From NCBI RefSeq assembly GCF_003334335.1, contig NZ_QOWQ01000029.1: a stretch of 64,000 bases of DNA; one strand, written 5' to 3'. Below the pieces are notes generated by a model, which worked only from the letters and a program-made list of their open reading frames with translations, searched no databases and was not told the DNA's origin. Positions 32,428-33,801 of the stretch are shown piece after piece (the first letter of the stretch is position 1; every line of letters starts with the position of its first letter). Origin of the DNA: Escherichia coli (GTDB taxonomy: Bacteria; Pseudomonadota; Gammaproteobacteria; Enterobacterales; Enterobacteriaceae). Both the position numbers and the translations under genes were made by a program.

Positions 32428-32910
32428 ATGTTAGTTAGTAAAAGCAACGGATTTAACGCTAGCGCAGTTTTGGGTAGTGGAAGTTATAATGAAAATAAAT
32501 CTTCTAAACACATGGAGCTACTAGCTCATAGTATTTTAAAATTAATTTGTAAGGAAGCTGCATCAGAGACGTATCGCGGTGCTCTTGAAACTTTACAAAA
32601 AATGATGTCTGAATGTATATATCAAGAAGGCAACGCCTTTGTCATTATGGGAGCTGGAGAGCAATTAAAACGTATTAAATATGAAGTTGGTGAAAATAAC
32701 TTAAAGGTATTCAACGTACACTTTAATAATAATCACGAGTTAGTTAGTTCTGGTGAGCCTGACGTAATATGTTTAAGCAAGCAGGTCTGGGAAAATCTTC
32801 TCATTAAACTAAAGCTGGAAAACAATGAAAATGTGTTTTCTGAAACTAAAAAATTATCGAATAAAAATAATGCCGATCAGTTTTTTGAATGCGCTAAAAG
32901 AAATGAATAG
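32428..32910 (+). CDS. Hypothetical protein in AT-rich islet (ypjC-like fragment); ends at a TAG that is in frame with ypjB
   Basis: 160-aa low-GC ORF; no recognisable domain. Confidence 0.45.
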   Translation: MLVSKSNGFNASAVLGSGSYNENKSSKHMELLAHSILKLICKEAASETYRGALETLQKMMSECIYQEGNAFVIMGAGEQLKRIKYEVGENNLKVFNVHFNNNHELVSSGEPDVICLSKQVWENLLIKLKLENNENVFSETKKLSNKNNADQFFECAKRNE

Positions 32911-33009
32911 AACCTTTTCGATAATATAAGAAAAAGTGATTTTCATGTTGGTTTACTTAAGCCAAGTAGTACGCGTAGTGTTATTTTAGAAACGCCGCCA
33001 AATGTCTGT

Positions 33010-33801
33010 ATGGAATCACGTAATTCATATGAAAACAAAATAGATGAGATTTCATCTTTGTCAGAGTCAAAGGAACACCCCATAGATATTCAAGAAAAAA
33101 AAGATGCGTTTGTGAATGAGTTCAAGGGGGTGTTATTTGATAAAAATACAAGGTCTTCAGAGCTTCTGTTTAATTTTTATGAGTGTTGCTATAAGTTTTT
33201 ACCAAGAGCTCAGCCTCAAGATAAAATCGATAGCTATAATTCAGCACTGCAAGCTTTTTCCATTTTTTGTTCATCTACGTTGACACATAATAATATAGGC
33301 TTTGATTTCAAATTATTTCCTGAAGTCAAGCTGTCTGGAGAACATCTTGAAACGGTATTCAAATACAAAAATGGCGATGATGTCCGGGAGATAGCCAAAA
33401 TTAACATTACTCTCCAAAAAGAAGAGGGTGGTTTATATAATTTACGTGGATTGGATTTTAAGGGGTGCTTCTTTTCTGGACAGAACTTCAGTAACTATGA
33501 TATTCAATATGTGAACTGGGGAACGTCATTGTTTGATGTTGATACTCCGTGTATTTTTAATGCGCCTGCTTACAACAAGAGTAATGAAAAATCATTAAAA
33601 CCTGTGAGCGAAAACGGTTTAAGTGGAGTATTGACTGATCGTAATAATAAAATAAAACTCATCACGGGCGTGGCACCATTCGATGATATTTTATTTATGG
33701 ATGATGACTTTGATGATAGTTCCTCTGAGGATGATCCCGTTGAGAATAGTCCTGTTGTGACTAGTCCCGTTGTATCAAGTTCTAAAAGCAGTTTTCAATG
33801 A
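33010..33801 (+). CDS. ypjB: Uncharacterized protein YpjB (263 aa)
   Basis: 263-aa low-GC ORF, MESRNSYENKIDE; short pentapeptide-like periodic stretch and acidic Ser/Pro/Val-rich tail. Confidence 0.65.
   Translation: MESRNSYENKIDEISSLSESKEHPIDIQEKKDAFVNEFKGVLFDKNTRSSELLFNFYECCYKFLPRAQPQDKIDSYNSALQAFSIFCSSTLTHNNIGFDFKLFPEVKLSGEHLETVFKYKNGDDVREIAKINITLQKEEGGLYNLRGLDFKGCFFSGQNFSNYDIQYVNWGTSLFDVDTPCIFNAPAYNKSNEKSLKPVSENGLSGVLTDRNNKIKLITGVAPFDDILFMDDDFDDSSSEDDPVENSPVVTSPVVSSSKSSFQ

What the first reader, a model, noticed from the sequence alone, without database searches (positions are those of the whole stretch)
32428..33801. ypjC-like ORF and ypjB are one reading frame split by a single TAG
ORF 32428..32910 (160 aa) and ORF 33010..33801 (263 aa, ypjB) are in the same frame. 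The 33 codons between them are open, and the only interruption is TAG at 32908..32910. As a unit they would encode about 457 aa. ypjB may therefore be the C-terminal part of a larger ancestral or read-through product rather than a stand-alone gene.
Basis: seen in the sequence. Interest (0 to 1): 0.6.

Follow-up and report, generated by a model that had tools for sequence, protein, structure and literature searches.

The report
ypjCB pseudogene split by amber codon
The two small E. coli "genes" ypjC and ypjB are the two halves of one 457-codon gene (ypjCB) that a single C-to-T change turned into a pseudogene in the K-12 lineage; NCBI's annotation pipeline already records this, so the finding is correct but ordinary.

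Summary
ORF 32428..32910 and ORF 33010..33801 share a frame, the 33 codons between them are open, and TAG at 32908-32910 is the only interruption.

It is a real gene remnant. The frame has 2 stops against 16-81 in the other five frames, and 0 of 20,000 shuffles do as well.

Every allele examined that lacks the TAG has CAG or CAA (Gln) at that codon. Uninterrupted 449-, 457-, 479-, 484- and 492-aa proteins are common in E. coli and Shigella, including a 457-aa one that matches the window over codons 1-194 except for Gln161. So TAG is a derived CAG>TAG nonsense mutation. Its exact 61-mer occurs in 1232 of 5426 complete genomes.

Other lineages carry different lesions: C41*, a 1-nt deletion at gene nt 609 (at least 282 genomes), another at nt 356, and stops plus a frameshift in CE10.

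The ypjB ATG has no Shine-Dalgarno sequence and is an internal Met (Val in CE10). There is no RNA structure or recoding element after the TAG.

RefSeq/PGAP already annotates "ypjCB, YpjCB family protein, internal stop" (NCBIfam NF050179). NC_000913.3 still lists two CDS.

The function of the intact protein remains unknown: it is restricted to Escherichia and Shigella, AT-rich and fast-evolving.

Verdict: already known, low interest.

The parts
32428..33801 (+). ypjCB pseudogene: 457 codons plus the stop, with one internal amber codon.
   Evidence: A single frame. NCBIfam NF050179.1 Ecoli_YpjCB scores 945 bits against a cut-off of 650, covering profile positions 1-465. RefSeq annotates the same span as 'ypjCB, internal stop' in K-12-like genomes.
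32416..32420 (+). Shine-Dalgarno sequence GAGGA, 7 nt upstream of the ypjCB start codon (ATG 32428).
   Evidence: The duplex with the 16S 3' end is -6.2 kcal/mol, against +1.0 kcal/mol for the 20 nt before ATG 33010.
32428..32907 (+). N-terminal fragment (160 aa), the 'YpjC' of K-12 and Pfam DUF5507. This is the only part expected to be translated efficiently.
   Evidence: On the intact O157 homologue, Pfam DUF5507 covers residues 1-160 at 9.5e-87. The exact 160-aa sequence is UniProt YPJC_ECOLI.
32908..32910 (+). Derived amber codon TAG at codon 161, where the ancestral residue is Gln (CAG).
   Evidence: The codon is CAG or CAA in all 13 sampled alleles that lack the TAG. It is Q in the 6 intact proteins aligned and invariant in the 14. 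The exact TAG 61-mer is in 1232 genomes; the CAG version with the same flanks is in 340.
32911..33009 (+). The 33-codon 'linker'. It is ordinary coding sequence of the ancestral protein (residues 162-194).
   Evidence: It is open and present, aligned without gaps, in all intact homologues. It differs by no nucleotide from intact strain CV839-06.
33010..33801 (+). C-terminal fragment (263 aa), the 'YpjB' of K-12 and Pfam DUF5508. Its ATG is internal Met195 of the full protein.
   Evidence: Pfam DUF5508 covers residues 195-449 of the O157 protein at 4.2e-163. There is no Shine-Dalgarno sequence. The codon is GTG (Val) in CE10.
33313..33552 (+). The most conserved stretch (residues 296-375), with a weak PA14-like motif (GLDFKGCFFSGQNFSNY..VNWG).
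   Evidence: The only hit outside the family among 1.84 billion representatives is a protein with four PA14-like repeats, at E = 3.6e-4. hhalign gives probability 20% and 34% identity over 77 columns. This is a lead only.
31602..31677 (+). ileY (tRNA-Ile, anticodon CAU), the upstream boundary of the AT-rich segment.
34138..34305 (+). pinH recombinase fragment (pseudogene), lying between ypjCB and ypjA.
   Evidence: Mapped from the RefSeq annotation of the near-identical strain XJW9B277 and of K-12.
34713..39293 (+). ypjA/ehaD adhesin-like autotransporter, the downstream neighbour on the same strand.

Best explanation
The region is a single gene, ypjCB. It encodes a 457-aa cytoplasmic-looking protein of unknown function and was inactivated in the K-12 allele group by one C-to-T transition that changed Gln161 (CAG) into amber (TAG).

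Shown:
- The two ORFs form one frame.
- The ancestral codon is Gln.
- Intact versions are common in other strains.
- Other lineages carry different, independent disabling lesions.
- The 'ypjB' ATG is an internal Met with no Shine-Dalgarno sequence.

Inferred:
- In sup0 cells, translation from the good Shine-Dalgarno sequence and ATG at 32428 ends at the TAG and yields only the 160-aa YpjC fragment.
- The 263-aa 'YpjB' ORF is an artefact of ORF calling. It is made, at most, in trace amounts by re-initiation or near-cognate read-through.
- In K-12 laboratory strains carrying the Gln-inserting amber suppressor supE44/glnV44, suppression would re-create exactly the ancestral Gln161 protein. That would be an accident of laboratory genetics, not a programmed event.
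For: One frame with a single internal TAG, with 0 of 20,000 shuffles as open.

Annotation and family assignment:
- NCBIfam NF050179 YpjCB scores 945 bits end to end.
- Pfam DUF5507 and DUF5508 lie on one polypeptide in the intact O157 protein.
- RefSeq labels the same span 'ypjCB, internal stop' in K-12-like genomes and gives it as an intact CDS in O157, CV839-06, Combat11I9, MS14386, OkiPb01695, YDC107 and EcE.ESBL.COL.

The ancestral state is Gln:
- Codon 161 is CAG or CAA in every allele without the TAG.
- Over codons 1-194, CV839-06 differs from the window only by the TAG and one synonymous site. Its exact 457-aa protein is seen on at least 1000 contigs.

Independent lesions elsewhere:
- C41* in EC14.
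- Deletion of C at gene nt 609, whose exact 91-mer is in at least 282 genomes.
- Deletion of 1 nt at gene nt 356 in NRZ88308.
- Q119*, W121* and a +1 frameshift in CE10.
- A secondary 1-nt deletion at nt 668 in the TAG carrier NCCP15648.

The gene is maintained where it is intact. Intact alleles differ by 51-161 nt, and the neutral probability of no stop arising over 100-150 substitutions is 0.7-4%.

Translation signals: the ypjC start has a Shine-Dalgarno sequence (-6.2 kcal/mol) and the ypjB ATG has none (+1.0).
Against: - The K-12 reference record NC_000913.3 still lists ypjC (b2650) and ypjB (b2649) as two protein-coding genes.
- A MG1655 ypjC deletion changed biofilm colonisation by a pathogen and raised biofilm cell counts 3.5-fold (PMC3646849). 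The locus, or its 160-aa fragment, may therefore not be inert.
- No expression data (ribosome profiling or proteomics) for either ORF could be examined here.
Confidence: 0.93

Rival explanations
1. Programmed or physiologically meaningful stop-codon read-through: the TAG is decoded at useful frequency in wild-type cells, giving both a 160-aa and a 457-aa product.
For: The frame stays fully open after the TAG. The TAG allele is very common, in 1232 genomes. Read-through in E. coli can be appreciable in some contexts and conditions (PMC11126739).
Against: - The stop is not conserved. All other alleles have a Gln codon, and other lineages are broken by frameshifts or stops elsewhere.
- The 103 nt from the TAG fold no better than shuffles (z = +0.26).
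- No Rfam element is present.
- Proteome-wide MS of MG1655 detected no read-through at TAG genes.
- The open frame downstream is explained by the recency of the mutation. TAG carriers are 99.6-100% identical over 1.6 kb, and one already has a second frameshift.
Confidence: 0.03
2. Gene fission: after the nonsense mutation, both halves persist as two separately translated, functional genes (ypjC and ypjB), as the K-12 reference annotation implies.
For: NC_000913.3 annotates both as CDS. Pfam has a separate family for each half. The ypjC deletion has a phenotype. An ATG is present at 33010.
Against: - There is no Shine-Dalgarno sequence before ATG 33010, and the ATG lies 99 nt beyond the stop, so coupling is unlikely.
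- That Met is an internal residue, and is Val in CE10.
- The two Pfam families were evidently delimited by the K-12 fragments (160/160 and 255/263 model positions) and always co-occur on one protein when the gene is intact.
- Other lineages break the gene at quite different places: codons 41, about 119 and about 203.
- PGAP calls the locus one pseudogene.
Confidence: 0.04
3. Sequencing or assembly error creating a false stop.
For: None.
Against: The identical TAG 61-mer is found in 1232 independently sequenced complete genomes, including many K-12 re-sequencings.
Confidence: 0

Closest known systems
RefSeq/PGAP gene 'ypjCB', YpjCB family protein (NCBIfam NF050179.1, model type 'exception')
   Same: The span, the frame and the interpretation are the same. 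K-12-like genomes are annotated as one CDS flagged as a pseudogene with an internal stop. The window's conceptual product scores 945 bits against a cut-off of 650 over the whole profile.
   Different: Nothing of substance. The window allele differs from MG1655 by two synonymous nucleotides, at gene nt 234 and 705.
E. coli K-12 reference genes ypjC (b2650, DUF5507) and ypjB (b2649, DUF5508) in NC_000913.3 / UniProt YPJC_ECOLI and YPJB_ECOLI
   Same: The protein sequences are identical to the two window ORFs.
   Different: The reference treats them as two stand-alone proteins. Comparative evidence shows they are the two halves of one disrupted gene.
Other classic K-12 lineage pseudogenes caused by single point lesions, such as the rpoS(Am) alleles, rph-1 and the ilvG frameshift (from general knowledge, not tested here)
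   Same: A single nucleotide lesion is fixed in a lineage while the gene stays intact in other E. coli. An amber lesion would be phenotypically reversible in supE strains.
   Different: The function of ypjCB is unknown. It is AT-rich accessory DNA rather than a core gene.

Membership tests
YpjCB family (NCBIfam NF050179.1) | Whole-protein HMM score above the curated cut-off (650 bits), with end-to-end coverage. | tested here: met
   945.1 bits, protein residues 1-449 against profile positions 1-465 of 465, with X at the stop.
YpjCB family (NCBIfam NF050179.1) | An uninterrupted reading frame, i.e. a functional member rather than a pseudogene. | tested here: not met
   There is an internal TAG at 32908-32910. 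RefSeq flags the same allele as a pseudogene with an internal stop.
Pfam DUF5507 + DUF5508 architecture | Both domains lie on one polypeptide, in the order DUF5507 then DUF5508. | tested here: met
   In the intact O157 homologue, DUF5507 covers 1-160 (9.5e-87) and DUF5508 covers 195-449 (4.2e-163). All 120 listed full-length homologues carry both. The window has both halves in one frame, separated by the stop.
Programmed stop-codon read-through (recoding) | The stop codon is conserved at the same position among homologues. | tested here: not met
   The codon is CAG or CAA in all 13 sampled alleles without the TAG, and Q in all intact proteins.
Programmed stop-codon read-through (recoding) | A stimulatory RNA structure or known recoding element 3' of the stop. 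| tested here: not met
   MFE -14.1 kcal/mol against a shuffle mean of -14.8, z = +0.26. There is no Rfam hit apart from the tRNA.
Programmed stop-codon read-through (recoding) | An extended protein product detected in wild-type cells. | not testable with these tools
   There is only indirect evidence: proteome-wide MS in MG1655 found no read-through at TAG genes (PMC11126739).
PA14 domain (Pfam PF07691) | A significant profile match across the domain. | tested here: not met
   Pfam reports no PA14 hit even at E <= 10. The only signals are a phmmer hit at 3.6e-4 to a PA14-like repeat protein and an hhalign probability of 20% over 77 columns.
Pentapeptide-repeat proteins (considered because of NLRGLDFKGCFFSGQNFSNYDIQYV) | A Pfam Pentapeptide profile match or a predicted right-handed quadrilateral beta-helix. 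| tested here: not met
   There is no Pfam hit. The AF2 model has low confidence (pLDDT 41) and shows no beta-helix.

The most novel reading that the evidence does not exclude
Intact YpjCB is a fast-evolving orphan protein restricted to Escherichia and Shigella (dN/dS about 0.7 among intact alleles). It is kept open in some lineages but has been knocked out independently at least five times. The repeated loss might be adaptive, for example if the protein is a liability in certain hosts or against certain phages. The surviving 160-aa YpjC fragment might retain, or have gained, an activity that explains the biofilm colonisation-resistance phenotype of the MG1655 ypjC deletion.
Probability: 0.12. 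Interest if true: 0.4.

Novelty: already known. Interest (0 to 1): 0.12.

Why it matters
It matters mainly for annotation hygiene.
- The K-12 reference record, UniProt (YPJC_ECOLI, YPJB_ECOLI) and Pfam (DUF5507, DUF5508) still present the two fragments as separate proteins or families. Experimental papers have treated ypjC as an 18-kDa protein or listed ypjB as a membrane protein.
- Anyone studying the locus should use an intact allele, such as O157 WP_000906744.1 or CV839-06 WP_000961357.1.
- Such studies should also take account of the fact that supE44 laboratory strains would partly restore the full-length protein.

Biologically it is one more example of lineage-specific decay of AT-rich accessory DNA bound by H-NS and Hha.

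Tried and rejected
- **Remote homology.** phmmer against 1.84 billion representatives found only one 50%-identity cluster, fragments of it, and one weak PA14-like repeat protein. This is too weak for any functional assignment.
- **Other sequence libraries.** A PDB sequence search, PADLOC and PHROGs gave nothing informative. phrog_30093 is the same family, with unknown function.
- **Structure.** The AlphaFold2 model built on the shallow 14-sequence alignment has mean pLDDT 41. Foldseek against the PDB gave no match with E <= 0.001 and TM <= 0.13, which is uninterpretable.
- **Pentapeptide repeat or T3SS-effector idea.** This came from reading the sequence and from memory. No Pfam support was found, so it was dropped.
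- **Counting the nt-609 frameshift.** The first 61-nt query returned nothing, apparently because the low-complexity filter masked the A8 run. Repeating it with a 91-mer worked.
- **Literature.** No paper in the library mentions YpjCB, DUF5507 or DUF5508.
- **Not run.** The protein databases already show that the family is confined to Escherichia and Shigella.

Full report
**1. Observation.**
ATG 32428 opens a frame that runs 160 codons to TAG at 32908-32910. It continues open for 33 codons, passes ATG 33010 and ends at TGA 33799-33801. That makes 457 sense codons if the TAG is ignored.

The frame contains 2 stops in 1374 nt, while the other five frames contain 16-81. None of 20,000 shuffles of the sequence has one or fewer internal stops. 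So this is the remnant of a real long coding frame and not a chance alignment of two ORFs.

**2. What the locus is.**
Megablast against 5426 complete E. coli genomes finds the locus in 3082, always chromosomal. RefSeq/PGAP annotates it as one gene, 'ypjCB: YpjCB family protein', or in older runs 'DUF5507 domain-containing protein'.
It is flagged as a pseudogene with an internal stop.
- In O157:H7 it is an intact 449-aa protein, WP_000906744.1.
- The window's conceptual product matches NCBIfam NF050179.1 (Ecoli_YpjCB) end to end, at 945 bits against a cut-off of 650.
- On the intact O157 protein, Pfam places DUF5507 on residues 1-160 and DUF5508 on 195-449. The two Pfam families are evidently the two K-12 fragments.
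- NC_000913.3, which is not PGAP-annotated, still lists ypjC (b2650) and ypjB (b2649) as separate CDS.

**3. Direction of the change.**
A DNA alignment shows CAA (O157) or CAG (CE10) where the window has TAG. In a sample of 18 genomes spread across the identity range, all 13 without the TAG have CAG or CAA. Gln is the residue at this position in the intact proteins aligned.

Strain CV839-06 carries an intact 457-aa gene. Over its first 194 codons it differs from the window only by the CAG/TAG site and one synonymous site. That exact protein is recorded on at least 1000 contigs. The TAG is therefore a derived C>T nonsense mutation.

The exact 61-mer with TAG occurs in 1232 complete genomes, and the same 61-mer with CAG occurs in 340.

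**4. Independent decay elsewhere.**
- EC14 has CAG at codon 161 but a TGT>TGA stop at codon 41.
- JE86-ST05, 09-00049, TUM12355 and STEC1588 have lost the C in GAAAACAAAATA at gene nt 609. The exact 91-mer carrying that deletion is in at least 282 genomes.
- NRZ88308 has a 1-nt deletion at gene nt 356.
- CE10 has two stops and a +1 frameshift.
- NCCP15648 carries the TAG and a further 1-nt deletion at nt 668.
- Seven of the 18 sampled genomes are intact, with lengths of 449, 457, 479, 484 and 492 aa. The lengths differ through an in-frame 105-nt indel and variation in the C-terminal tail.

**5. Is the intact gene real?**
The intact alleles differ from one another by 51-161 nt. About 3.3% of substitutions in this AT-rich frame would create a stop when transitions are weighted 4:1, and 5.2% unweighted. 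The neutral chance of staying open over 100-150 changes is therefore 0.7-4%, which means the ORF is being maintained in those lineages.

Protein-level constraint is nevertheless weak or diversifying. The dN/dS ratio is 0.67 overall, 0.79 for residues 1-160, 1.2 for the linker and 0.54 for residues 195-449.

**6. Is ypjB a stand-alone gene?**
The 20 nt before ATG 33010 have no complementarity to the anti-Shine-Dalgarno sequence (+1.0 kcal/mol). The true start at 32428 has GAGGA with 7 nt of spacing (-6.2 kcal/mol). The ATG lies 99 nt beyond the stop, and the codon is GTG (Val) in CE10.

**7. Read-through?**
- The stop is not conserved.
- The downstream RNA is unstructured (z = +0.26).
- Rfam finds only the ileY tRNA in 31000-35000.
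- Proteome-wide MS in MG1655 detected no read-through for any TAG-terminated gene (PMC11126739).

From general knowledge, supE44/glnV44 strains insert Gln at UAG. In many laboratory K-12 derivatives the ancestral protein would therefore be partly restored. That is an incidental consequence, not a designed mechanism.

**8. Function of the intact protein.**
This remains unknown.
- The family is an orphan. All 120 best hits among 5.8 billion proteins are at least 86% identical, and every one that carries a source name is from E. coli apart from one 'Enterobacteriaceae bacterium' isolate. A 449-aa Shigella boydii protein is a member of the CV839-06 cluster.
- Among 1.84 billion 50%-identity representatives there is one full-length cluster, fragments of it, and one weak hit (E = 3.6e-4) to a protein with four PA14-like repeats. 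hhalign gives that hit only 20% probability.
- There are no PDB, PADLOC or informative PHROG hits.
- AlphaFold2 gives mean pLDDT 41, and Foldseek finds nothing.

The gene is about 33% G+C. Published data place a constitutive sigma-70 promoter and H-NS binding between ileY and ypjC (PMC3946193), and Hha binding at ypjC (PMC2408971). Both are typical of silenced, horizontally acquired DNA.

A MG1655 ypjC deletion increased pathogen colonisation of mixed biofilms (PMC3646849). This is the only hint that the locus or its 160-aa fragment is not inert.

**9. Context.**
The window carries, in order: ygaQ' (an alpha-amylase-family pseudogene), ileY, ypjCB', pinH', a 39-codon ORF, ypjA/ehaD and ssrA. 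ssrA lies directly after ypjA, so this strain lacks the CP4-57 prophage that separates them in K-12.

**10. Verdict.**
The 'read-through' reading is unsupported.

The fused gene and its K-12 internal stop are already encoded in NCBI's curated model and RefSeq annotation, although no paper in the searchable library mentions them. Novelty is 'already known' and interest is low.

Noticed in passing
window 39454-39816 (-) and 34713-39293 (+): The tmRNA gene ssrA lies 160 nt after the end of ypjA. In K-12 MG1655 the roughly 22-kb cryptic prophage CP4-57 sits between them. This strain therefore lacks CP4-57, or has lost it.
   Followed up: partly
window 28790-31042 (-): A ygaQ-like alpha-amylase-family gene is annotated as a pseudogene with an internal stop in the near-identical strain XJW9B277, and also in D9 and O157. 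It is intact in strain CE10. It is a second lineage-specific pseudogene next to ypjCB.
   Followed up: no
window 33052/33053 (gene nt 625): ypjCB alleles show an in-frame 105-nt (35-aa) presence/absence polymorphism. Strains MS14386, YDC107, EcE.ESBL.COL, CE10 and NRZ88308 have the extra segment. Intact genes exist both with and without it.
   Followed up: partly
window 32428-33801: The allele looks like a recombination mosaic. Codons 1-194 of the window differ from strain CV839-06 by the TAG and one synonymous site, while codons 195-449 differ at 26 sites. The nt-609 frameshift also occurs on two different N-terminal backgrounds.
   Followed up: partly
window 31602-31677 (+): ARAGORN calls this tRNA 'Met (CAT)', but RefSeq annotates it as tRNA-Ile (ileY), the CAU-anticodon isoleucine tRNA. 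A sub-threshold Rfam hit to 'Plastid-ycf2' on the opposite strand of the tRNA is evidently spurious.
   Followed up: no
L020 5691-7007 (-), upstream of ypjCB at 8001-9455: In another E. coli assembly, an element carrying a phage-type integrase, an AlpA-like gene and a YagK/YfjJ-like gene sits upstream of ypjCB, on the side where ileY lies in the window. This suggests that this junction also serves as an integration site.
   Followed up: no
window 34138-34305 (+) and 34529-34648 (+): A pinH recombinase fragment lacking both ends and a conserved 39-codon hypothetical ORF (WP_001120794.1) lie between ypjCB and ypjA. Both are present in every strain inspected.
   Followed up: no
window 33676-33735 (+), residues 417-436: The C-terminal tail is strongly acidic (PFDDILFMDDDFDDSSSEDD) and is conserved in all intact alleles. 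Its significance is unknown.
   Followed up: no
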